A stretch of 64,000 nt of DNA from Candidatus Saccharibacteria bacterium QS_5_54_17. GTDB lineage: Bacteria; Patescibacteriota; Saccharimonadia; QS-5-54-17. Below the pieces are notes generated by a model. That model made no database searches and had not been told where the DNA came from. It saw only the letters and a program-made list of their open reading frames with translations. The position numbers were made by a program, and so were the translations under genes. This document shows positions 100 to 52,990 of the stretch, one piece after another. The stretch's first letter is position 1, and each line of letters opens with the position of its first letter. Where the stretch lies: positions 75,964 through 139,963 of the forward strand of contig PXOU01000018.1 in assembly GCA_003022365.1 (NCBI GenBank). Direction: 5' to 3'.

Positions 100-560
100 C
101 GTAGTTGTCCATTGATTGCAAATAGGCCGTATAGTCTCCCGGCTTATTGAATACCTCGGATGCAGTAAACAACAAGGAGGTGTTTGTGCGCAAGCACCCG
201 GAACCATTATCAAAACCCGGCAACAAAAACCCAGGCGAAACATCATTCCTGAAGATGTCATTCCTGAAACAAGTTCAGGACAGGCTCTGAATTTATTTCA
301 GGATCTTCCCCTATTGTCATCCTGAACTTGTTTCAGGATCTGTTTTAGGCTTGGCTTCAAAACCATATCGGGTTAATAGATTCCGGCTCACTTCGACCTT
401 GCTCAGTGCGGGCGGGGGCCGGAATGACAAAGAGGGTAGCCTCGTAATAACGAACTTTCTCTTGTCATCCTGAACTTGTTTCAGGATCTGTTGCAGAAAC
501 GATTCCGAACTAAATTCGCAGTGACGGAGGAGGTTCGCAGTGACAAAAAGGCTTTGCATT
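100..560. repeat. Composite palindromic intergenic repeat element, copy A
   Basis: Shares modules with copies at 30.5, 39.9, 52.7 and 61.8 kb: tatagtctcccggcttattgaa(c/t)acc; hairpins tcctgaaacaagttcagga and gtcatcctgaacttgtttcaggatctg; gaggctttgcatttttccacttgc... Confidence 0.6.
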
Positions 561-593
561 TTTCCACTTGCTGCTTGCTTCTTGTTCCTGCTC

Positions 594-21126: not shown

Positions 21127-22643
21127 ACGTCATACCCGATTTTCTTCAAATTATCTTTAATCTGCTGTTCCAGCTCATGGCTTTGTTCGAACTGCTCACC
21201 CAGGTCTTTGGTGAGGCGTTGCATTTTCTCTTCGAATGCTTCATCATCTTCCTCCACCTCTTCGGCGCCCACGTAACGGCCGGGCGTGAGAACGTATTCA
21301 TGTTCTTTTACTTCTTCCAGTGAAGCAGCTTTACAAAAACCGGGTGTGTCTTCATATTCCCCGCTCTCATCCCGCCAGGCGTGATAGGTACCAGCAACTC
21401 TAGCGATGTCTTCTTCCGAAAGTACGCGGTTGCGGCGATTGATCATATGGCCCATGTTGCGCGCGTCAATGAAGAGAATTTCATCTCTATCAGTACGTTC
21501 GCGGGAAACAAACCACAGACAGGCCGGAATGCCAGTATTGAAGAATAAATGACTCGGCAGCGTAACGATAGCATCTACTAACCCGGCTTCCAGGATATTC
21601 TTGCGAATATCGCCCTCTCCGGATGTATTGGAACTCATGGAGCCGTTAGCCAACACGAAGCCGGCAATGCCTTTTGGCCCCAGATGGTGGATGAAGTGCT
21701 GTACCCAGGCAAAGTTGGCATTATTTTTGGGCGGCGTGCCGAACTTCCAGCGCACGTCATTTTGCAACTGTTCTCCGCCCCAATCATCGTCATTAAATGG
21801 TGGATTGGCCAGTATGAAGTCGGCTTTAAGATCCGGATGTTTGTCGTTATGGAAAGAGTTGCCTTGGCGAATGTCGGCATCAATGCCACGAATGGCCATA
21901 TTCATCTTAGCAAGGCGCCACGTGGTTGGGTTCGATTCCTGCCCGTAAATGGCGATGTCGTCCAATCGGCCTTGATGGTGCCCCACGAATTTCTCCGACT
22001 GGACGAACATGCCGCCGCTACCGCAGCACGGGTCGTAAATTCTTCCTTTATACGGCTCGATCATTCCCGTTAAAAGCTGGACAATGCTTCTGGGTGTGTA
22101 GAACTGGCCGCCGCGCTTGCCTTCGGCATCGGCGAACATACCAATGAAGTATTCATAAATCCGGCCCAGAATATCCTTGCTGTTATGGCCATCGCCATTG
22201 AGCGAAATACTGCTGAAAAGATCAATCAATTCGCCGAGACGTTGCTTGTCCAAAGCTTCCCGTCCGTAGTTTTTGGGTAACACTCCTTTGAGTGACGGAT
22301 TATCACGCTCAATGGCATCCATGGCTTCATCAATGAGCGTACCGATGTTCGGTTGTTTGGCATTGTCGCGCAGATATGACCAGCGAGCTTCTGACGGTAC
22401 CCAAAAGACATTTTTAGCTGCATACCAATCGCGATCCTCGGGATCAAATTCCTCATCCAGTGCCTGCTGATAACGCTCATCAAAGGCATCGGAGATGTAT
22501 TTAAGGAAAATCAGTCCCAGCACCACGTGCTTATACTCGGCCGCGTCCATGTTGTTCCGCATCTTATTAGCCGACTGCCACAGTTTCTGTTCTACGTTTT
22601 GGATGTCCAAAACAAAAACTCCCTTACTTTTATACCGTTGCAC
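21123..22643 (-). CDS. hsdM: Type I R-M DNA methyltransferase subunit
   Basis: HsdM N-terminal domain, AdoMet motif I (DPCCGSGG), catalytic NPPF. Track start is GTG 22643. TTG 22610 with an aagggag SD is a likely alternative. TGaTATAAT extended -10 at about 22655-22663. Confidence 0.9.
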
Positions 22644-22988
22644 CTGATTATATCATGAACAAAGCAAAAAACCGAACATAACAGTTTGGGAAAAACCGAA
22701 CAAGTCGCAATGCGGTAACTAAATTATTTTCGATTTCAAACTCTTTCATAAGACTCAACAACTCGTTTTATCTATTATAGAGAAATATCACATACTTATC
22801 CGAACTTATTGCATCAGAAAGTGAATAAAGTTTGTATAATAGCTCGGTTTTTATTTCAAGATTACTTCTTCTTGCATATCTTTGGTTGATATAAGCAACA
22901 TACATTTTCTATAATAATGCTTAGAAAAAGGTACTCGGCCGTGGTTTATATACCACACAGAGCGGAGTATCTTTTTCTTTTTATGTGC

Positions 22989-23408
22989 TTATTGCTCCGG
23001 AAACGCTGACATGAATGATTTCCTGCCACTCCGTTTATCTTCTTTGATTTGTACATAGAATAACTCTTTCTCTTTCGTCATTCCTCCAAACCTGTGTAAA
23101 ATTTCTGAGTGATTGTTGGGATTTTGTTTGGAAACTGGTTCCCGGCGGGAATTGTGTATGAGATCCAAGGCTGGTGGTAGTAGCTTTAGGCGACGAACTC
23201 TGTCTTGCCAGTTTTTGCCATGTAGGTGACTCCAGAATAAATTAAGAAAAACTTTATCTTTACGAAAGTATGCTGAGCGTATGTATGGAGTGCGTTTCGT
23301 GCGAGCAGTGTAGACCTTAAAAACAGCACGTGCTCTTTTGTTAACTTCGCGGTAATTCGTGCCGGAAAGTGGGTTTTTACCTGACTCATAAACCTTCACG
23401 ATGACCAC
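22989..23408 (-). CDS. Hypothetical basic protein
   Basis: 139 aa, Lys/Arg-rich, in an AT-rich stretch at the island edge. No confident family. Confidence 0.4.
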   Translation of the reverse strand: MVIVKVYESGKNPLSGTNYREVNKRARAVFKVYTARTKRTPYIRSAYFRKDKVFLNLFWSHLHGKNWQDRVRRLKLLPPALDLIHNSRREPVSKQNPNNHSEILHRFGGMTKEKELFYVQIKEDKRSGRKSFMSAFPEQ

Positions 23409-30539: not shown

Positions 30540-30900
30540 CCCGGGTGAGGACCGTATAGTCTCCCGGCTTATTGAACACCTCCTTGTCATTGCCAAGACG
30601 TCATTCCTGAAATAAATTCAGGACAGGCTCTGACCCCGATACGGGATCCGTTTCGGACATCACTGCCAATTTAGGTGGGAATCGGCTCTGCAATAGATCC
30701 TGAACCAAGTTCAGGATGACAGTTCTTTTTCGTCACCCGCTTTGTCATTCCGGCCCCCGAGCCCCGAATCCATTAACCCGATACGGTCCTGCAACTAATC
30801 CTGAAACAGATCCTGAACCAAGCCTGCCTGCCGGCAGGCAGGTTCAGGATGACATATTCAGAAATGGGCGCCCGCCCTTCTCATGCCAAGTTTTCCGTTA
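30540..30900. repeat. Composite palindromic intergenic repeat element, copy B
   Basis: tatagtctcccggcttattgaacacc; gtcattcctgaaataaattcaggacaggctctga; cctgcctgccggcaggcagg palindrome. Confidence 0.6.
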
Positions 30901-30904
30901 ACCC

Positions 30905-31912
30905 TCATCCGCTGCTTAAGAGACTCTTCTGGTATTCGGCCAGGTTCCCCAGTGCCACGGCCGCGCCGTTGACCACGCAATATTCGGGATCGTCGGCGAC
31001 CAAAATCGGCACGTCGATGACTTTTTTGAACAAAACGTCCACTCCGGTCAATTTGCCGCCGCCGCCGGTCAACACGATGCCTTGATCTATGATGTCGCTA
31101 ACCAGTTCGGGTTGGGTATCTTCCAGGACCGAACGGACATTGCGGACGATCTGTTCCAGAATATCCTGGATGGGTTCGATGATTTCGCTGTCGGCCAGGG
31201 TGATGGTTTTGGGCAAGCCGCCGACGATATCCCGGCCCTGGACTTGCATGGAGTGCTGCTGGTCGTCGGCAATGGCCCGGCCGATTTTGTGTTTGACGGT
31301 TTCCGCCATGTGTTCGCCGATGGATAGATTGTGGTGTTTCCGGAGGTATTCGGATATAGCCGTGTCGATTTTATTGCCGCCCACCCGGACACTGGTCTGG
31401 GCGACTACGCCCCCCAGGGAAATAACGGCGATTTCGGTGGTGCCGCCGCCGATGTCGATAACCATATTCCCCCGCGGCTGGGTAACCGGGACCGCCGCTC
31501 CCAGGGCCGCGGCTACCGGTTCCTCGATGATGTAGGCCGCCCGGGCGCCGGCGGCGATAGTGGCGTCAATAACCGCTTTCTTCTCGGTGGAAGTAGCCCC
31601 GGCCGGTATGCTGATCATGACATCGGGCTTGACCAGGCGGAGGCGGCCGATGGCTAGATTAATATAGTGTTTGAGCATTTCCCGGGTAATCCGGAAATCG
31701 GCGATAACCCCATCCCGGAGGGGGCGATGGGATATCAGCGCTTGAGGGGTCCGTCCCAGCATATCCTCGGCTTCTTGGCCGATGGCGACGAGACTCCCCT
31801 GGTCGCTATTGACCGCCACCACGCTGGGTTCATTGACGATGATGCCGCGTCTGGGGGTGTACACCAGCGTCGAGACGGTGCCGAGATCGATGGCAATTCG
31901 TTTGGCGAACAT
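30905..31912 (-). CDS. mreB: Rod-shape protein MreB
   Basis: Actin-like ATPase: IDLGT, DIGGGTT, GGG motifs. Confidence 0.9.
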   Translation of the reverse strand: MFAKRIAIDLGTVSTLVYTPRRGIIVNEPSVVAVNSDQGSLVAIGQEAEDMLGRTPQALISHRPLRDGVIADFRITREMLKHYINLAIGRLRLVKPDVMISIPAGATSTEKKAVIDATIAAGARAAYIIEEPVAAALGAAVPVTQPRGNMVIDIGGGTTEIAVISLGGVVAQTSVRVGGNKIDTAISEYLRKHHNLSIGEHMAETVKHKIGRAIADDQQHSMQVQGRDIVGGLPKTITLADSEIIEPIQDILEQIVRNVRSVLEDTQPELVSDIIDQGIVLTGGGGKLTGVDVLFKKVIDVPILVADDPEYCVVNGAAVALGNLAEYQKSLLSSG

Positions 31913-31935
31913 ATCTATACTATACTATAGACGCA

Positions 31936-33314
31936 TGAAACCGCCATTAAAACAGATCTTCCGCTGGCTCAAATATCCGGCGTTGATATTGGGCATTGCG
32001 GCCGCGACCGTGGTGCTGGTCGCCTATGGGCGCGGCTATTTTTATGATTTGGAAACGGGGAAAATCGCCGGCGGCGGTTTGCTCTCCATTGATTCGGAAC
32101 CCGGCGACGCCCGCATCCGCGTTGACGACGCTCGGCGTGGCAGCACCGAAAATCGGATCCGACTGGCCTCAGGTACCTACACGGTCCAGTTGCGGCGGGA
32201 AGGTTACCGTTCCTGGACCAAAGAGTTATCTGTTCAGACCGCGGCGGTGACCTACGCGCGGTATCCGGTGCTGGTGCCCAACAAGGTACCTTCCGATCCG
32301 ATCCGAAATTTAAACGGGCTTAAATTTGTCTCCCAAAGCGATGATCAACGATATCTGGCCGCGGTGACGAGCACTGACGGCGGAGATCGGCTGCGGATCT
32401 TTCCGGCCGGCGGCCAATCTTCCTACCTGGCGTTGGCTCCCTCCGCTAAATACCCGAGCTTAAACATAAACATAACCGATCTCAGCTGGGCGCCTGACGC
32501 CTCGCGCGCATTTGTCCGGGCGGAAATTTCCAGCGGCTCCAAGCGGTACTTCGTCTTCAACCCTGGGGCCAAGCGGAGCGGCCGGGAGGTGGAGGCGATC
32601 GCTGGCGAGGTTTTCCGGCAGCCGATTTTCAGCCAAAGCAGCCAAGCCATATACGGGATCACGGACGATAACGTGTTGCGGCGCCTGGCTCTAAATCAAT
32701 CACCGCCCCGGCCTATCGCCCGTAATATCACCGCGTTCGATGTATACCAGGACGCCATCTATGCCCTGCAGCAAGCCTCTGGGGGCTCACAGCTGGTGCG
32801 AATCGAGGACGGTGAAACTCGATCGCTGTCTATTAATCATCTCCCCGGGGCGCACCAAATTGAGGCGATCCAGCATCAGGGTCAGCTACACCTGATGTTG
32901 CACAACACAGATCGGGCGCAGGTAACCCTGATTGCCAACCCTGCCTCCGGGGCCCCGGCTACCACCTCCTTGCCGCCCGGCGCGGCGGAGCGGGTCACCG
33001 TCAGCCCGGGCGGCGCATACGTCCTCATGTACAGCGGCAGCCATTTTACGACTTATGATCTAAAGCGTCAGCAAACGCATCGGTTCCGGCTGGCGGATAT
33101 GGCTACCGAGCCGCAGTGGTACACCGAGCATCACTTATTGGCAGTCAGCGGAGAAGGGGTGATACTGCTGGAGTTCGACGGCGCCAACCAGGAGTATCTG
33201 ACGGTCGCCCAGGACTTCCGGGTATTCGGCAATCATCAACAAGACACGGTGTATAGCATCCGGCGTAATCAGGTAACCAACCAACTACAGTTGCAGCGCA
33301 GCAACCTAAAATAG
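31936..33314 (+). CDS. PEGA-domain membrane-anchored protein
   Basis: ATG 31936 (MKPPLKQ) followed by a TM helix, PEGA-like segment (GDARIRVDD...SGTYTVQLRREGY) and a beta-rich C-terminal domain. Track ORF 31782 overlaps mreB and was trimmed. Confidence 0.6.
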
Positions 33315-35582
33315 ATCGCCCATGAATTCGAAGAAGCTTCGGCTGGAGTCGCTGGGGAGCGCCGGTGAATCCTGACCAGAGGCGTTTTGGGGGTCGGTGT
33401 TCTGGCTGGGATCAGGCGTCACTTGTTTGGCCTGGACGATCAACCGTTGCCAACTGGTGCCCGGCGGCGTACAGGTAATCAGCGTTAAACGGGGTTGTTG
33501 GGTCTGCTTCAGCACGCTGGTGTTGGTGGGTTCGACCACCTTCTTGTTCTGGACTTTGTAGACATACCGAGTGCCCTGATAGTGCAGCACGATCTCATCT
33601 CCTCGCTGCATTTTGTCCAGCAGAATAAAGGCGAATTTGTACTTGCCGCTATCCCACCAGTTGTTGGAAGAGTGTCCGACAATTACCGTATTGCCGTTCT
33701 CGCCGGGTTTGGCTGTGGTGCCGTAGTGAACGACCCCGCGCTGGAGGGCCTTTTGCACCTTCTCTTCCTTGAAACTCGGTTCGTCGTAGACCACGGGCAC
33801 CTTAACATCGATCTGGGGGATAATGATGCGCGGCTTATCACCGACTGAGGGCTCGAGGTCCACCGAGCCCGAGGTGGACTGGATGCCGCCACTGGGAGTG
33901 GTTAAGTACTGCACCTGTCCCAGGATGACTTGGGCGTTGAATACGGCGAATATCAGCATGCCGAAACCGGCCGCTGAAACAGCCGATTTGAACCGGATTT
34001 TTTTCAACCAGTCACTGATACTCCCCGCCACTGCCAGGCCGCGGGCTTTCCAGCCTGTTTTTTGGTCGTCACCTAGGCCTGAGTCTCCGTCTTCCGGCGG
34101 GGCCCCGGTTTCCGGTGGGGCTTGGGGCGCGGCGGGAGCGGTGGCCGATGTCTCTTGTGCCGGTGTCTGTGTTGCTGGGGGGAGCTGGAAAGTCGCGTCG
34201 CTGGTTTGGGCGGCAGTTTCTCCGGCTGGTTGATTGGTTTGGCCGGCTTCCGGTGCGTTGGTTTGTGGTTGGGGTTGAGCTGGCGGTTGTTGGTCGGGGC
34301 TTGGCTGAGCGGTTAGTTGCGGCGCTTGCGGGGCTTGGAATTGCTGGGGCGGGGTTTCTTCGGCGGGTGGCGGCTGGATCTGCGCTTGACCCCCAGTAGT
34401 GGGTTCGGATGGTTGCAGTTGCTCGGGCTGAGGTGGTGGTTGCTCGGGTTGTGGCGGCGGTTGTTGCGGCTGAGGCGGTGTTTGCTCGAGGGGTTGCTCG
34501 GGTTGAGGTGGTGTTTGCTCGGGGGGTTGCCCCGTGGCGTTTGGTTGCCCTGCTTCGGCGGGGGCGGCAGGTTGCGGCACTTGCTCAGGCTGCGGCGGCG
34601 CAGGTGGTTCTGGTGCTGGTGGCGGCTGTTGCGTGGGTGGAGGTTGCTGCTGGTTTGGCGGCAACGGTTGTTGCTCGTTCTGCGCCGGGGGTGGTTGCTG
34701 GGGCTGGGGCGGCGCCACGTTCTCAGGCGGCTGCGCTCCAGGCGAGTCGGGTTGCGGCATTGGTTGCCCGGGCTGAGGTGGTGGTTGTTCGGGTTGTGGC
34801 GGCTCCACGGGTTGCGGTGGCGGTGCTTGCTCGAGGGGTTGCTCCGGCTGGGGCGGCGCCGGTTCTGGCGGCGCCGTGACTTGCTGCTGGGGTTCCGGTG
34901 ATGGAGCCTGGGAATTGGCGGGCGGTATGTCCTGGGGTTGCCCAGTTGGCGGCAACGGTTGTTGCTCGTTCTGCGGCACCGGCTGTTGCTCGTTCTGCGG
35001 CAACGGTTGTTGCTCGTCTTGCGGCAATGGTTGCGGCGGTTGTCCCTGCCCAGCGGCTTGATTCGGGTCGTTTGGTGGTTGCGGCGGCTGTTGGACATTG
35101 CCATCTGCCGGCGCCGGTTGGGGCGGCGGCCCGGATGCCTGGGTATCGCCGCCTTCGGCAACCGGTTGCGGGACGGGCGCCTCCCCGGTGTTGGCAAACT
35201 GCCCCACGTCCGGCGGTTGCAGTTGAAATTCCGGGGTCTGGGGTTGTTGGTATGGCTGGCCGTCTACCCCGACCGATGGCTGTTGGTCCGGGCGATCATT
35301 AACGTTTTGCCCGGCGTCCGATGGTTGATTGGGCGGCGGCTGGTCCGGTTCCCCCGTGGGCGGGGGCGGCTGGTCGCCAACTTGAGCAGGCGTGTCCTGT
35401 AATTGCACTGCGTCGTAGGGCGGATTTTGCCCCTGCGTGGGCGGGTTTGGTTGTGGCGACTGGTCTGGCCCCGGAGCCTGCTGGTCGGCGGACGCGTCCT
35501 GCTGAGGCGGTTCTGGCGGAGGAGCGTTGCTGGGCTCGCCATCCGATTGCAGTGGATACGGGTATTGGTGATTATCGTCCAT
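33306..35582 (-). CDS. Sortase-family transpeptidase with ~540-aa Pro/Gln-rich N-terminal region
   Basis: C-terminal sortase fold with His (IVGHSS), catalytic TLITC and a conserved Arg; preceding TM helix; N-terminal PPQPEQP-type low complexity with 24-bp tandem DNA repeats. Confidence 0.7.
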   Translation of the reverse strand: MDDNHQYPYPLQSDGEPSNAPPPEPPQQDASADQQAPGPDQSPQPNPPTQGQNPPYDAVQLQDTPAQVGDQPPPPTGEPDQPPPNQPSDAGQNVNDRPDQQPSVGVDGQPYQQPQTPEFQLQPPDVGQFANTGEAPVPQPVAEGGDTQASGPPPQPAPADGNVQQPPQPPNDPNQAAGQGQPPQPLPQDEQQPLPQNEQQPVPQNEQQPLPPTGQPQDIPPANSQAPSPEPQQQVTAPPEPAPPQPEQPLEQAPPPQPVEPPQPEQPPPQPGQPMPQPDSPGAQPPENVAPPQPQQPPPAQNEQQPLPPNQQQPPPTQQPPPAPEPPAPPQPEQVPQPAAPAEAGQPNATGQPPEQTPPQPEQPLEQTPPQPQQPPPQPEQPPPQPEQLQPSEPTTGGQAQIQPPPAEETPPQQFQAPQAPQLTAQPSPDQQPPAQPQPQTNAPEAGQTNQPAGETAAQTSDATFQLPPATQTPAQETSATAPAAPQAPPETGAPPEDGDSGLGDDQKTGWKARGLAVAGSISDWLKKIRFKSAVSAAGFGMLIFAVFNAQVILGQVQYLTTPSGGIQSTSGSVDLEPSVGDKPRIIIPQIDVKVPVVYDEPSFKEEKVQKALQRGVVHYGTTAKPGENGNTVIVGHSSNNWWDSGKYKFAFILLDKMQRGDEIVLHYQGTRYVYKVQNKKVVEPTNTSVLKQTQQPRLTLITCTPPGTSWQRLIVQAKQVTPDPSQNTDPQNASGQDSPALPSDSSRSFFEFMGDLF

Positions 35583-35705
35583 ATGATTGGCTATTCTCCA
35601 CTTGGTATAGTAAAATTAACCACGTTAATACTCAAGTTACCCGGCGTTTTTGGGCTGCCGGCGCCAGGAGTATCGGCGGTACGCAAAGCAGATCATTAAA
35701 ATCAG

Positions 35706-35870: not shown

Positions 35871-36497
35871 CTATCCTTGTTCTTCTGCAGAACTGACGTT
35901 GTGTTGACGGGAAAATTCGGCAATTGCCGCGTCGTAATCACCTTCAGCACCGATCCAACTCCAAAAATCCTGGAAATCATCCTCGATATTCTCGATCCGC
36001 ACCTCCATGGAGCACTTATCCCTCAGGAAATGGGCGATATTGGCATTCACCGTGTCGTAATAGAATCGGCAGATTTCTATGCGTTGCTCTTCGTTCCATG
36101 GGGCAGGCCGGGCGATAATGGGATGGGCGAATGCCAGTATAATGCCGGGACCCGGGTGTCGTTCCCGGTGCTTCCGGTATGCCCGTATGATCGGATTTTT
36201 ATACTCTTTCCATGGCGGAGGATCTTCCTTCCAGCGTTTCAGAAAGCTTTGGGCGACAGCTTCCCGATCCCGGACAAGATGTACGAACCGCGCGTCGGGA
36301 TATTTTTCGCCTAAAACGCCAAGGAACCATGCCAGACGATTATCGACCTCTATGTGATTATCGGGATACTCGAGTCGCTGGGAGGGCGGCATTTCATGCC
36401 GTGATTCATGGCCGGCCGAAAAATTAGTCATGTGTTCACACCCGCGAGCAAAGGACAGTGAGCCGCATCTTCCGGTGTTTAGTACAAAAACCCGCAT
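35871..36497 (-). CDS. Putative sulfotransferase-family (Stf0-like) protein
   Basis: RVFVLNTGRCGS PAPS-binding-like loop at the N-terminus. Weak similarity only. Confidence 0.4.
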   Translation of the reverse strand: MRVFVLNTGRCGSLSFARGCEHMTNFSAGHESRHEMPPSQRLEYPDNHIEVDNRLAWFLGVLGEKYPDARFVHLVRDREAVAQSFLKRWKEDPPPWKEYKNPIIRAYRKHRERHPGPGIILAFAHPIIARPAPWNEEQRIEICRFYYDTVNANIAHFLRDKCSMEVRIENIEDDFQDFWSWIGAEGDYDAAIAEFSRQHNVSSAEEQG

Positions 36498-36578
36498 GTG
36501 TGGATGGTACCACGCCATGAGGTTATCGCACCGGGTACTTTGTCGTCTCTTTCAGTTTGTTATGGTACTGTAATATAC

Positions 36579-37100
36579 ATGGACTCTGTGAGTATTGCCA
36601 CTGCTTCCGGTGCTGTTCGAGAGGAGCAAGTTAAGAAAATTCTTGAGAACATATTGGAAAAATATGAACTTGCACCCTACACCTTTACGGACACGGTTCG
36701 AATAGAAAGTTACGTAAAACCCCACAGCCACCCCGTCCTGACACTCAATACCTATAAGTTTGATGAACACCACCTACTCAGCGTGTATGTACATGAACAA
36801 ATCCATTGGTTCCTGGACGAGAAAGAACAAAAAGCTGAAGCTGTCATCGCTGAATTGCGCGAGCACTATGAGGAAGTTCCGGTCGGCGACCCGGAAGGCG
36901 CACCTAGTGAATACTCCACCTACCTCCATCTTATCGTCTGCCCCTTGGAGTACACGGCATTAAAACGCTTGCTCGGCGACCCCGCAGCCAAAGAATTACT
37001 GCACGAAAAAAATTTCTACCAATGGATTCACAAGACCACTATCCACGATTATGAATTTCTTATGGATATTATTCGCAAACATGGGCTGGAAATAGAGTAA
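36579..37100 (+). CDS. Hypothetical protein
   Basis: 173-aa ORF from ATG 36579. No recognisable domain. Confidence 0.5.
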   Translation: MDSVSIATASGAVREEQVKKILENILEKYELAPYTFTDTVRIESYVKPHSHPVLTLNTYKFDEHHLLSVYVHEQIHWFLDEKEQKAEAVIAELREHYEEVPVGDPEGAPSEYSTYLHLIVCPLEYTALKRLLGDPAAKELLHEKNFYQWIHKTTIHDYEFLMDIIRKHGLEIE

Positions 37101-39839: not shown

Positions 39840-40140
39840 TCCCACCTGCGAAAATTTCCAAAAGCAGCCTATAGTATCCCGGCTTATTGAACACCTTCCC
39901 TGCATTAAACAACGAAGTGGGTGTTCACGGGCGTAGCACCGGAACCATTCGGAACCATTATAAAAATGCGGCAACAAAAACCGGACTGAACGTTATTTCT
40001 GCATATATCATCCTGAACCTGCCTGCCGGCAGGCAGGCTTGTTTCAGGATCTGTTTCAGAGCCGGATTCCGATCCGGGATCGTTTCCCTGTTGCAGAATG
40101 AGATTCCGAACCAAGTTCGGAATGACAAAGAGGGTTCAAT
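39840..40140. repeat. Composite palindromic intergenic repeat element, copy C
   Basis: tatagtatcccggcttattgaacacc; catcctgaacctgcctgccggcaggcaggcttgtttcaggatctg; gaaccaagttcggaatgaca. Confidence 0.6.
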
Positions 40141-52599: not shown

Positions 52600-52990
52600 G
52601 GAGCTATACACGGGATGCGTATAGTCTCCCGGCAGCAGGAACAGGAAGCAAGCAGCAAGAAGCAAGAAGCAAGTAAAAGACAGGAAGTAGACAGGGAGTG
52701 AGAAGCAACAGGCTCTGAATATGTCATTCCTGAAACAAGTTCAGGACAGGCTCTGAATTTATTTCAGGATCTTCCTCTCTTGTCATCCTGAATTTATTTC
52801 AGGATCTGTTGCAAAACTGGATTCCGAACCAAGTTCGGAATGACGGAGGAGGTTCGCAGTAACAGAGAGGCTTTGCATTTTTCCACTTACTTCTTACTTC
52901 CTGTTCCTGTCAGCCACTTCGTCTCCCGGCTTATTGAACACCCCCGTGAGTAAACAGCAAGGAGGTGTTCAATAAGTTTCCGTCACATTA
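52600..52990. repeat. Composite palindromic intergenic repeat element, copy D (most complete)
   Basis: All modules present, including both arms of cttattgaacacc-N20-ggtgttcaataag and caggaacaggaagcaagcagcaag with its inverse gcttgc...cctgttcctg. Confidence 0.65.

What the first reader, a model, noticed from the sequence alone, without database searches (positions are those of the whole stretch)
33306..35582. Sortase with a ~540-aa Pro/Gln-rich N-terminal extension encoded partly by in-frame 24-bp tandem repeats
Residues 1 to about 540 are almost pure PPQPEQP-type low complexity, followed by one TM helix and a canonical sortase domain (TLITC). The DNA carries at least three perfect or near-perfect 24-bp tandem units (34951-35022) plus further degenerate copies, all in frame. 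The tract is therefore a candidate for slipped-strand length variation. A sortase carrying a giant disordered region is unusual, and the region could be a cell-surface spacer or a phase-variable element.
Basis: seen in the sequence. Interest (0 to 1): 0.5.

Follow-up and report, generated by a model that had tools for sequence, protein, structure and literature searches.

The report
Saccharibacteria sortase with giant cytoplasmic tail
This is a real 758-residue cell-wall sortase from a salt-crust Saccharibacterium (TM7) whose N-terminal tail, normally about 170 residues in its family, has grown to about 530 residues of acidic proline/glutamine-rich disordered sequence that lies inside the cell, not on the surface, and changes length through short DNA repeats.

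Summary
The ORF (33306-35582, minus strand) is as described. It has a P/Q-rich stretch (residues 1-508), a basic juxtamembrane segment, one TM helix, and a sortase domain with an intact His637/Cys704/Arg713 triad. Three near-perfect 24-bp units (21-22/24 identical, none perfect) lie at 34956-35027.

The tail is translated. The frame is open in four independent assemblies, while the other five frames carry 4-17 stops. All 10 indels against a sister species are multiples of three. dN/dS is 0.29 in frame against 1.1 and 1.5 in the shifted frames.

Length variation is real. The sister species has one 24-bp unit instead of three. A contig 100% identical over 6.6 kb has a precise 291-bp in-frame deletion between two perfect 30-bp direct repeats, giving 661 aa.

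The surface-spacer and phase-variation readings fail. The tail has no signal peptide, and the charge distribution puts it in the cytoplasm. All repeats are in frame.

A cytoplasmic N-terminal extension is the family norm (median 173 aa in 145 loci) and is known in Streptomyces SrtE1. This clade is a threefold outlier. Its function is inferred only. Gene callers truncated the protein to 217-424 aa.

The parts
33306..35582 (-). Complete sortase gene, 758 codons plus stop. Starts at ATG 35582 (MDDNHQYPYPL...).
   Evidence: ORF list. The same start and an open frame occur in L001 (760 aa), L002/L003 (744 aa) and L164 (661 aa). The frame has 0 stops in the tail in all lineages, against 4-17 in the other five frames.
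34059..35582 (-). Residues 1-508: acidic Pro/Gln-rich intrinsically disordered tail. D+E 60, K+R 2, net charge -58. 78% disorder-promoting residues. Predicted cytoplasmic.
   Evidence: Composition and charge-hydropathy. dN/dS 0.27-0.29 in frame against 1.09 and 1.53 in shifted frames. Mismatches by codon position are 47/39/98. All indels against L001 are multiples of 3.
34956..35027 (-). Three tandem 24-bp units encoding (L/V)PQ(D/N)EQQP. A fourth, degenerate unit follows.
   Evidence: TRF. Unit comparison gives 21-22/24. L001 lacks exactly 48 bp, two units, here.
34946..34975 (-). Perfect 30-bp direct repeat, copy 1 (CGCAGAACGAGCAACAACCGTTGCCGCCAA). It overlaps the third tandem unit.
   Evidence: Exact-repeat extension and the L164 junction.
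34655..34684 (-). Perfect 30-bp direct repeat, copy 2, 291 bp downstream in the gene. L164 has lost one repeat copy plus the sequence between the two copies (291 bp, 97 codons).
   Evidence: The L163 contig begins exactly at window 34654, next to this repeat.
34418..34488 (-). Degenerate 21-bp-period array (PPQPEQP-type heptapeptides). A second such array lies at 34748-34800.
   Evidence: TRF. Three of the ten indels against L001 are 21 bp, and one of them (34773-34793) lies in the second array.
33984..34058 (-). Residues 509-533: basic juxtamembrane segment TGWKARGLAVAGSISDWLKKIRFKS (6 K/R, 1 D/E).
   Evidence: Conserved in L001 and L002.
33912..33983 (-). Residues 534-557: the single transmembrane helix (signal anchor).
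   Evidence: Kyte-Doolittle scan. AF2 predicts a long helix here.
33420..33827 (-). Residues 586-721: sortase catalytic domain with His637, Cys704 (TLITC) and Arg713.
33306..33419 (-). Residues 722-758: linker plus the conserved C-terminal tail LPSDSSRSFFEFMGDLF. The family motif is [VIL]P[GS][ND]xPS[LF]W...
   Evidence: Family C-termini. AF2 predicts a short terminal helix at moderate confidence.
35583..35705 (-). AT-rich upstream region between the ATG and the divergent tRNA-Leu. It has a GGAG 13 nt before the ATG and weak sigma-70-like hexamers.
   Evidence: Sequence. The promoter scan gives only weak consensus matches.
31782..33314 (+). Context: convergent PEGA-domain membrane protein overlapping the sortase stop by 9 bp. 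mreB lies beyond it at 30905-31912 (-). The arrangement is conserved in all close relatives.
   Evidence: Pfam. Gene tables of L001, L002, L163 and L164. ORF list.

Best explanation
The gene encodes one full-length, membrane-anchored sortase of a halophilic Saccharibacterium. It is most likely 'Ca. Saccharibacteria bacterium QS_5_54_17' from Atacama salt crusts. Its topology is N-in/C-out. The catalytic domain, with an intact His-Cys-Arg triad, faces the cell wall. The first ~530 residues stay in the cytoplasm. Those residues form a strongly acidic Pro/Gln-rich disordered chain that ends in a basic juxtamembrane patch. [quoted passage not shown] It grew and still changes length by in-frame gain and loss of DNA between short direct repeats (24-bp tandem units, 21-bp degenerate units, a 30-bp dispersed pair), through replication slippage or short-homology recombination. 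Shown: the single ORF, its translation in this frame, purifying selection, repeat-mediated length differences, the family-wide presence of an extension, and an intact enzyme. Inferred: the topology, from the charge distribution and the need for the enzyme to be outside. Also inferred: the role of the tail. By analogy with Streptomyces SrtE1, whose acidic cytoplasmic extension is required for function, the tail would be a flexible tether. It would present a few conserved short motifs (MDDNHQYPYPL, NPPYDxVQLQD, QQPSVGVDGQPYQQP, FQLQPPD, TFQLP) to a cytoplasmic or membrane partner that positions or regulates the enzyme. Its exact length would be only loosely constrained.
Against: There is no direct evidence for any function of the tail. 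The natural 291-bp deletion removes a conserved island (QPQDIPPA), and omega is four times higher than in the catalytic part. Much of the tail may therefore be dispensable. The helix motif AADLIRxKI, found in 81 of 148 family extensions, is absent here, so continuity of function with ordinary family members is uncertain. The topology was not run through a dedicated predictor. The 758/661-aa difference comes from assemblies, not reads, and the two assemblies may derive from the same sample. An additional short isoform from an internal start (GTG-518 or TTG-526, the start chosen by gene callers) cannot be excluded.
Confidence: 0.7

Rival explanations
1. The P/Q tract is tolerated 'junk'. It is a runaway low-complexity expansion driven by slippage in a small, drift-prone symbiont genome. 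It has no role of its own beyond not disturbing the short functional juxtamembrane part.
For: Omega is 0.27-0.29 against 0.074 in the catalytic part. Amino-acid identity to L002 is only 49% in the tail against 81% in the rest. A 97-residue deletion allele exists in nature. The extension is three times the family norm, with loss of the family's AADLIR helix.
Against: Omega is clearly below 1. Several islands of 7-15 residues are identical across lineages whose synonymous sites are saturated (dS > 2.6). The strong acidic bias (60 D/E against 2 K/R) is maintained across the clade. The tract has stayed at more than 500 aa in three diverged lineages.
Confidence: 0.25
2. One reading: the P/Q region is an extracellular, cell-surface spacer.
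For: Pro-rich spacers are common in wall-spanning regions of Gram-positive surface proteins and in TonB (general knowledge). No tool result here supports it.
Against: There is no signal peptide or any hydrophobic stretch in residues 1-511. There is a single TM helix, with K/R clustered on its N-terminal side. With one TM helix, an external tail would put the sortase domain in the cytoplasm, where it has no substrate. All 145 relatives have the same order: extension, basic patch, TM helix, catalytic domain.
Confidence: 0.03
3. Phase-variable contingency locus: changes in repeat number switch the sortase on and off, or vary an exposed epitope.
For: Repeat copy number does differ between relatives, and a large repeat-bounded deletion allele exists.
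Against: All units (24, 21, 30 bp) and all 10 indels keep the frame. There are only three imperfect tandem copies. The longest homopolymer is 7 nt. No frameshifted allele was seen in five assemblies. The tail is cytoplasmic, so it is not under antigenic selection.
Confidence: 0.04
4. The tail is not translated. The true gene is the 217-233-aa (or 424-aa) product called by the JGI, Logan, ENA and NCBI pipelines, and the upstream C/A-rich DNA is non-coding.
For: Four pipelines called short products. T is only 7.4% on this strand, so stops are rare in every frame. There is a GGAG 13 nt before TTG-526.
Against: The frame-specific selection signals argue against it. The Met-Asp-Asp start is shared with relatives that have shorter extensions. 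No complete family member has an extension shorter than about 88 aa, apart from one truncated-looking call. NCBI's own call for L003 is the full 744 aa (P0125). The antisense ORFs that callers placed in the tract are broken by stops in relatives.
Confidence: 0.03
5. The 758/661-aa length difference is an assembly artefact rather than a biological polymorphism.
For: Both sequences are metagenome assemblies and are 100% identical elsewhere, so they may come from the same reads. Repeats are classic sources of assembly collapse.
Against: The repeat is only 30 bp, far below the final k of the L164 assembly (contig name k119_). The long form has the same layout as the independent L001 and L002 assemblies. 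The sister-species comparison independently shows repeat-unit indels.
Confidence: 0.25

Closest known systems
Streptomyces coelicolor SrtE1 (class E sortase) with its cytoplasmic N-terminal extension (CE); Kattke et al. 2016, PMC5148588
   Different: The SrtE1 extension is 100-200 aa and not P/Q-rich. Here it is about 530 aa, with 29% Pro, 21% Gln and net charge -58. The protein scores 67.5 bits against the NCBIfam class E model, whose cut-off is 160. The host is a CPR bacterium, not an actinobacterium.
The ordinary Saccharibacteria (TM7) housekeeping-type sortase family (for example P0028 of Ca. Saccharimonadales, and loci L005-L162)
   Same: The catalytic domain is 40-60% identical. All have the single TM anchor, a pre-TM extension, the conserved C-terminal tail motif, and often the neighbouring PEGA and mreB genes.
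   Different: The family extension has a median of 173 aa (IQR 158-186), is K/R-rich (10-18%), and usually has an AADLIRxKI helix. This clade has 520-536 aa, almost no K/R, and no such helix. An intermediate of 397 aa exists in L004.
Pro/Gln-rich cytoplasmic linker of E. coli FtsK (own knowledge, not tested here)
   Same: It is a several-hundred-residue P/Q-rich, disordered, cytoplasmic segment attached to a membrane anchor. Its length varies between species.
   Different: In FtsK the linker joins a membrane domain to a cytoplasmic motor. Here the chain has a free N-terminus, and the only folded domain is on the other side of the membrane. There is no sequence relationship.
Class C (pilus-assembly) sortases, for example PDB 8t28 and 6bwe
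   Different: The score is far below the class C cut-off of 160. No pilin genes or LPXTG-type substrates lie nearby. Class C enzymes have no long N-terminal cytoplasmic tail.

Membership tests
Sortase superfamily (Pfam PF04203 / TIGR01076, peptidase C60) | Sequence match to the sortase domain above curated thresholds | tested here: met
   PF04203 scores 102.3 bits against a cut-off of 26.6. TIGR01076 scores 70.3 against 39.35.
Sortase superfamily (Pfam PF04203 / TIGR01076, peptidase C60) | Catalytic His, Cys within TLxTC, and Arg | tested here: met
   His637 (VGHSS), Cys704 (TLITC) and Arg713. All three columns are invariant in 121 homologues.
Sortase superfamily (Pfam PF04203 / TIGR01076, peptidase C60) | Eight-stranded beta-barrel sortase fold | tested here: met
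Sortase superfamily (Pfam PF04203 / TIGR01076, peptidase C60) | Transpeptidation of substrates carrying a C-terminal sorting signal | not testable with these tools
   No ORF with an LPXTG-like motif, hydrophobic stretch and basic tail was found in the 64-kb window. The rest of the genome is not available.
Class E sortase | Score above the NCBIfam class_E_sortase cut-off | tested here: not met
   67.5 bits against a cut-off of 160.
Class E sortase | Recognition of LAxTG signals through a conserved Tyr in the beta3/beta4 loop (PMC5148588) | not tested
Class C sortase | Score above the NCBIfam class_C_sortase cut-off, and location in a pilin gene cluster | tested here: not met
   75.7 bits against a cut-off of 160. 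The neighbours are the PEGA protein, MreB, glycosyltransferases and tRNA-Leu, with no pilins.
Class D, class F and GN sortases | Score above the respective NCBIfam cut-offs | tested here: not met
   Class D scores 63.4 against 165, SrtD 64.4 against 140, class F 40.9 against 166, and GN 34.9 against 158.
Sortases with a cytoplasmic N-terminal extension (SrtE1-like architecture) | A long region before the single TM helix that has no signal peptide, with basic residues next to the helix | tested here: met
   There are 533 residues before the TM helix, the most hydrophobic 12-mer scores KD 0.1, and there are 6 K/R in the last 25 residues. The same layout occurs in 145 relatives.
Sortases with a cytoplasmic N-terminal extension (SrtE1-like architecture) | The extension is required for function | not testable with these tools
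   This has been shown only for SrtE1. Here there is only purifying selection (omega 0.29).
Phase-variable / contingency locus (simple-sequence repeats) | Repeat changes shift the reading frame or alter a promoter | tested here: not met
   The units are 24, 21 and 30 bp. All 10 indels against L001 and the 291-bp deletion are in frame. The longest homopolymer is 7 nt.
Phase-variable / contingency locus (simple-sequence repeats) | Repeat number differs between closely related strains | tested here: inconclusive
   The tandem copy number is the same (3) in the 100%-identical L164, although L164 has the 291-bp repeat-bounded deletion. The number is 3 against 1 against 0-1 only between species-level relatives. 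No reads are available.

The most novel reading that the evidence does not exclude
In a salt-adapted Saccharibacteria clade, the sortase has acquired a length-polymorphic, highly acidic P/Q 'bristle' of more than 500 residues on its cytoplasmic side. Under this reading, length alleles (758 and 661 aa) coexist in one population, and tail length tunes where or how actively the enzyme anchors surface proteins. It could do so by tethering the enzyme to the MreB/PEGA-associated wall-growth machinery encoded next to it. This would be a cytoplasmic, repeat-driven regulator of a cell-surface enzyme, not described for any sortase.
Probability: 0.12. Interest if true: 0.55.

Novelty: new variant of a known kind. 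Interest (0 to 1): 0.35.

Why it matters
Sortases are among the few recognisable cell-surface machines of the Candidate Phyla Radiation (CPR), whose members live attached to other microbes. This finding shows that the Saccharibacteria enzymes as a family carry a sizeable cytoplasmic domain that has gone unremarked, and that in one halophilic clade it has tripled in size through repeat-mediated growth. It also has a practical consequence. Five pipelines produced five different gene models (217, 224, 233, 424 and 744 aa) and several spurious antisense genes. Protein databases therefore largely hide this region, and surveys of disordered regions or sortase architecture in CPR will under-count it. 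If the tail does bind a cytoplasmic partner, it would link surface-protein anchoring to intracellular organisation in organisms where almost nothing is known about either.

Tried and rejected
1. Exact look-up of the 758-aa protein found nothing on record, because databases hold only truncated calls.
2. A metagenome scan with the full protein gave 145 pattern hits but none confirmed. A second scan with the catalytic-domain alignment gave 80 loci, but none was closer than 55% identity, so it added no strain-level relatives.
3. Look-up of P0122 (the NCBI 424-aa call) in the contig index found nothing.
4. The L165 contig covers only the 3' part of the gene, and the L163 contig stops at the repeat. 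Neither says anything about the tandem array.
5. The search for LPXTG-like substrates in the window returned only an antisense artefact and two unconvincing membrane proteins.
6. The promoter and terminator scan gave only weak consensus matches.
7. I considered halophilic 'salt-in' adaptation as the cause of the acidity. The window's proteins have a median pI of 5.6, only moderately acidic, so this does not explain a net charge of -58.
8. I considered P/Q richness as a genome-wide trait. This is the only such tract in 64 kb.
10. I did not run a full-length AF2 prediction. Without an admissible deep alignment, low confidence in the tail would be uninformative.
Full report
**1. The observation**

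The minus-strand ORF 33306..35582 (758 aa) is present exactly as described.
- Residues 1-540 are 28.7% Pro and 20.6% Gln.
- The only hydrophobic segment lies at residues ~534-557.
- Pfam's Sortase domain covers residues 586-721 (E 2e-29).
- The catalytic residues are His637, Cys704 (in TLITC) and Arg713. All three are invariant in an alignment of 121 homologues.
- Tandem Repeats Finder reports a 24-bp array at 34949-35033 (3.5 copies, 88% matches).
- The three full units (34956-35027) encode LPQDEQQP, LPQNEQQP and VPQNEQQP. They are 21-22/24 identical to each other, so they are near-perfect but none is perfect.
- A fourth, dispersed copy sits 291 bp further into the gene. The unit matches four times in the window and never in 100 shuffles.
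- Degenerate 21-bp arrays are also present.
- This is the only P/Q-rich tract in any frame of the 64-kb window.

**2. Is it one gene, and is the tail translated?**

Public protein collections hold only truncated versions of this protein:
- 233 aa (JGI and Logan)
- 224 aa (Logan)
- 217 aa (ENA)
- 424 aa (NCBI PSO42991.1, 'Ca. Saccharibacteria bacterium QS_5_54_17', identical to window residues 335-758)

The underlying DNA tells a different story.

- The full frame is open from the same MDDNHQYPYPL start in L001 (760 aa), L002/L003 (744 aa) and L164 (661 aa).
- In the tail region the sortase frame has no stop in any lineage, while the other five frames have 4-17. From base composition the chance of an open frame is about 4e-4 per lineage.
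- An unguided DNA alignment with L001 (about 10% nucleotide divergence) has ten indels: 21, 36, 48, 3, 21, 9, 3, 21, 6 and 6 nt. All are multiples of three.
- Nei-Gojobori omega for the tail is 0.27-0.29 in this frame, against 1.09 and 1.53 in the two shifted frames. Mismatches fall 47/39/98 on codon positions 1/2/3.

The tail is therefore translated and under purifying selection. That selection is weaker than on the catalytic part, where omega is 0.074. The antisense ORFs that gene callers placed in the tract are artefacts of low complexity.

**3. Length variation**

The tandem array has three units here and in L164, one in L001, and none or one in L002/L003. The 48-nt indel against L001 is exactly two units.

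The L164 contig (ENA ERZ27230158, 92.5 kb) gives a sharper result. It is 100.000% identical to the window over 2,305 + 4,379 bp. The only difference is a precise 291-bp deletion whose junction is a single copy of a 30-bp sequence, CGCAGAACGAGCAACAACCGTTGCCGCCAA. That sequence occurs twice, perfectly, in the window at 34946-34975 and 34655-34684. The result is an in-frame 661-aa allele lacking 97 residues.

A third assembly (L163, 90.5% identical) breaks exactly at the edge of this repeat.

One caveat applies. These are assemblies, possibly of the same sample, so read-level confirmation is needed. The 30-bp repeat is well below the final k-mer of that assembly, which argues for a real allele.

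Nothing supports on/off phase variation. Every unit and every indel preserves the frame, and the longest homopolymer is 7 nt.

**4. Which side of the membrane?**

- Residues 1-508 contain 60 D/E and 2 K/R (net charge -58), and 78% are disorder-promoting residues.
- Their mean hydropathy is far below the charge-hydropathy boundary.
- They contain no hydrophobic stretch; the best 12-mer scores KD 0.1. There is therefore no signal peptide.
- The 25 residues before the TM helix hold 6 K/R, and the 28 after it hold 2.

With a single TM helix and a catalytic domain that must reach the wall, the tail is cytoplasmic. The 'cell-surface spacer' idea is therefore rejected. This is an inference from sequence rules, not an experiment.

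**5. Family context**

A scan of one genome per species found more than 595 relatives, almost all in Saccharibacteria/Saccharimonadales MAGs. A metagenome scan added 80 more loci. In 145 loci with a complete ORF:
- The pre-TM extension has a median of 173 aa (IQR 158-186).
- Apart from one truncated-looking call, every complete locus has an extension (the shortest is about 88 aa).
- Outside the window's clade the maximum is 397 aa (L004, from Laguna Lejia), followed by about 250-270 aa in other P/Q-rich relatives.

A cytoplasmic N-terminal extension is therefore a family trait. This clade, at 520-536 aa, is a threefold outlier reached through intermediates.

Ordinary members are K/R-rich and usually have an AADLIRxKI-type helix (81 of 148). 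The window's protein lacks that helix.

Within the clade several islands survive saturated synonymous divergence: MDDNHQYPYPL, NPPYDxVQLQD, QQPSVGVDGQPYQQP, FQLQPPD, QPQDIP, TQIQPPP and TFQLP. A [FYW]x[ILV]P motif is enriched in the family's extensions, occurring in 37 of 147 against a mean of 13.8 and a maximum of 23 in shuffles. This is a hint of short linear motifs and no more.

**6. Sortase class**

No NCBIfam class model reaches its cut-off. The scores are C 75.7, E 67.5, D 63.4 and F 40.9, against cut-offs of 160-166.

It is a sortase, but it cannot be assigned to a named class. No substrate with a sorting signal is encoded in the window.

**7. Closest known and mechanism**

The nearest precedent is S. 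coelicolor SrtE1. It has a 100-200-aa cytoplasmic extension with an acidic region and a basic stretch before the TM helix. Deleting the acidic part gives a null phenotype, and the authors suggest it contacts other proteins (PMC5148588). The same paper notes that such extensions are absent from nearly all other sortases.

The present protein has the same layout on a much larger scale and with a P/Q-rich composition. It also resembles, from my own knowledge, the P/Q-rich cytoplasmic linker of E. coli FtsK.

My best reading has two parts:
- Structure and evolution (well supported): a flexible acidic tether, grown by repeat slippage.
- Function (inferred): the tether displays a few conserved motifs to a cytoplasmic or membrane partner.

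The conserved neighbours are a convergent PEGA-domain membrane protein, then mreB and wall-polymer glycosyltransferases. They are obvious candidates for a functional link, but adjacency is all that is shown.

The main rival is that most of the tract is tolerated junk. The 97-residue deletion allele and the relaxed omega favour that view. The conserved islands, the maintained charge bias, and the retention of more than 500 residues in three diverged lineages argue against it.

**8. Source**

The window probably comes from the Atacama salt-crust MAG QS_5_54_17, for three reasons:
- The C-terminal 424 residues are identical to PSO42991.1.
- The GC content is about 54%.
- The taxon exists in NCBI taxonomy.

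Saccharibacteria were first reported from hypersaline sites in that study (PMC5532433). The window's proteins are only moderately acidic (median pI 5.6), so general halophilic adaptation does not explain the tail's charge.

**9. Verdict**

It is of moderate interest, and it carries a useful annotation lesson.

Noticed in passing
window 33306-33419 (residues 722-758); C-termini of P0003-P0120 and L004-L162: After the catalytic domain, almost the whole Saccharibacteria sortase family ends in a conserved tail. It has a low-complexity linker, then [VIL]P[GS][ND][AS]PS[LF]W.R...F (here LPSDSSRSFFEFMGDLF). A subgroup ends right after an LPxxx motif (..RLPEVS, ..QLPAIK). AF2 predicts a short terminal helix at moderate confidence. 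An LP-containing motif on a sortase's own C-terminus might act as a lid or pseudo-substrate, but I could not inspect the model coordinates.
   Followed up: partly
window 134-590, 30570-30865, 39995-40059, 52715-52969, 61782-62100: A dispersed, mostly intergenic repeat family (87-95% identity) is built from palindromic units ATCCTGAA-N-TTCAGGAT, some enclosing a second GC-rich palindrome (CCTGCCGGCAGG). There are eight exact unit matches in the window against 0 in shuffles. It looks like a REP- or MITE-like element, which is unexpected in a small CPR genome. There was no Rfam hit at gathering thresholds.
   Followed up: partly
window 13703-13772 and 13812-13881; tRNA-Glu 13850-13925 (-); 14306-23408: A perfect 70-nt direct repeat overlaps the 3' part of tRNA-Glu. 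It sits next to a low-GC block (34-43% GC against about 55% elsewhere) that begins with a type I restriction enzyme R subunit (14785-17889). This looks like a horizontally acquired restriction-modification island integrated at a tRNA.
   Followed up: partly
L001 5507-5860, L002 401-1444, L164 1412-2551, and the protein database entries P0001, P0002, P0122, P0123, P0124: Gene callers truncated this sortase to 217, 224, 233 or 424 aa, and filled the P/Q-coding DNA with spurious antisense 'genes' of 89-200 aa. Only one record (P0125, 744 aa) has the full protein.
   Followed up: yes
window 35871-37100 compared with L001 3480-4100: A 1.2-kb segment lies between tRNA-Leu and the 258-aa gene in the window and in L164, but is missing at that position in the sister species L001. 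It carries a sulfotransferase-like gene (35871-36518, weak Pfam Sulfotransfer_3 match) and an unannotated 200-aa ORF. This is a small indel next to a tRNA gene.
   Followed up: no
window 31782-33314 (+) and 30905-31912 (-): The longest ORF of the PEGA-domain gene (510 aa) overlaps mreB by about 130 bp. Relatives are called at 457-459 aa, so the true start is probably near 31941. The PEGA gene and the sortase gene converge and overlap by 9 bp at their stop codons in all close relatives.
   Followed up: no
L004 (JBBDOS010000001, Laguna Lejia MAG), L083-L090: Relatives with intermediate extension lengths (250-400 aa) are also P/Q-rich, and at least two of the long-tailed lineages come from saline Atacama sites. 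A possible link between habitat and tail expansion could not be tested, because sample metadata are not available.
   Followed up: no
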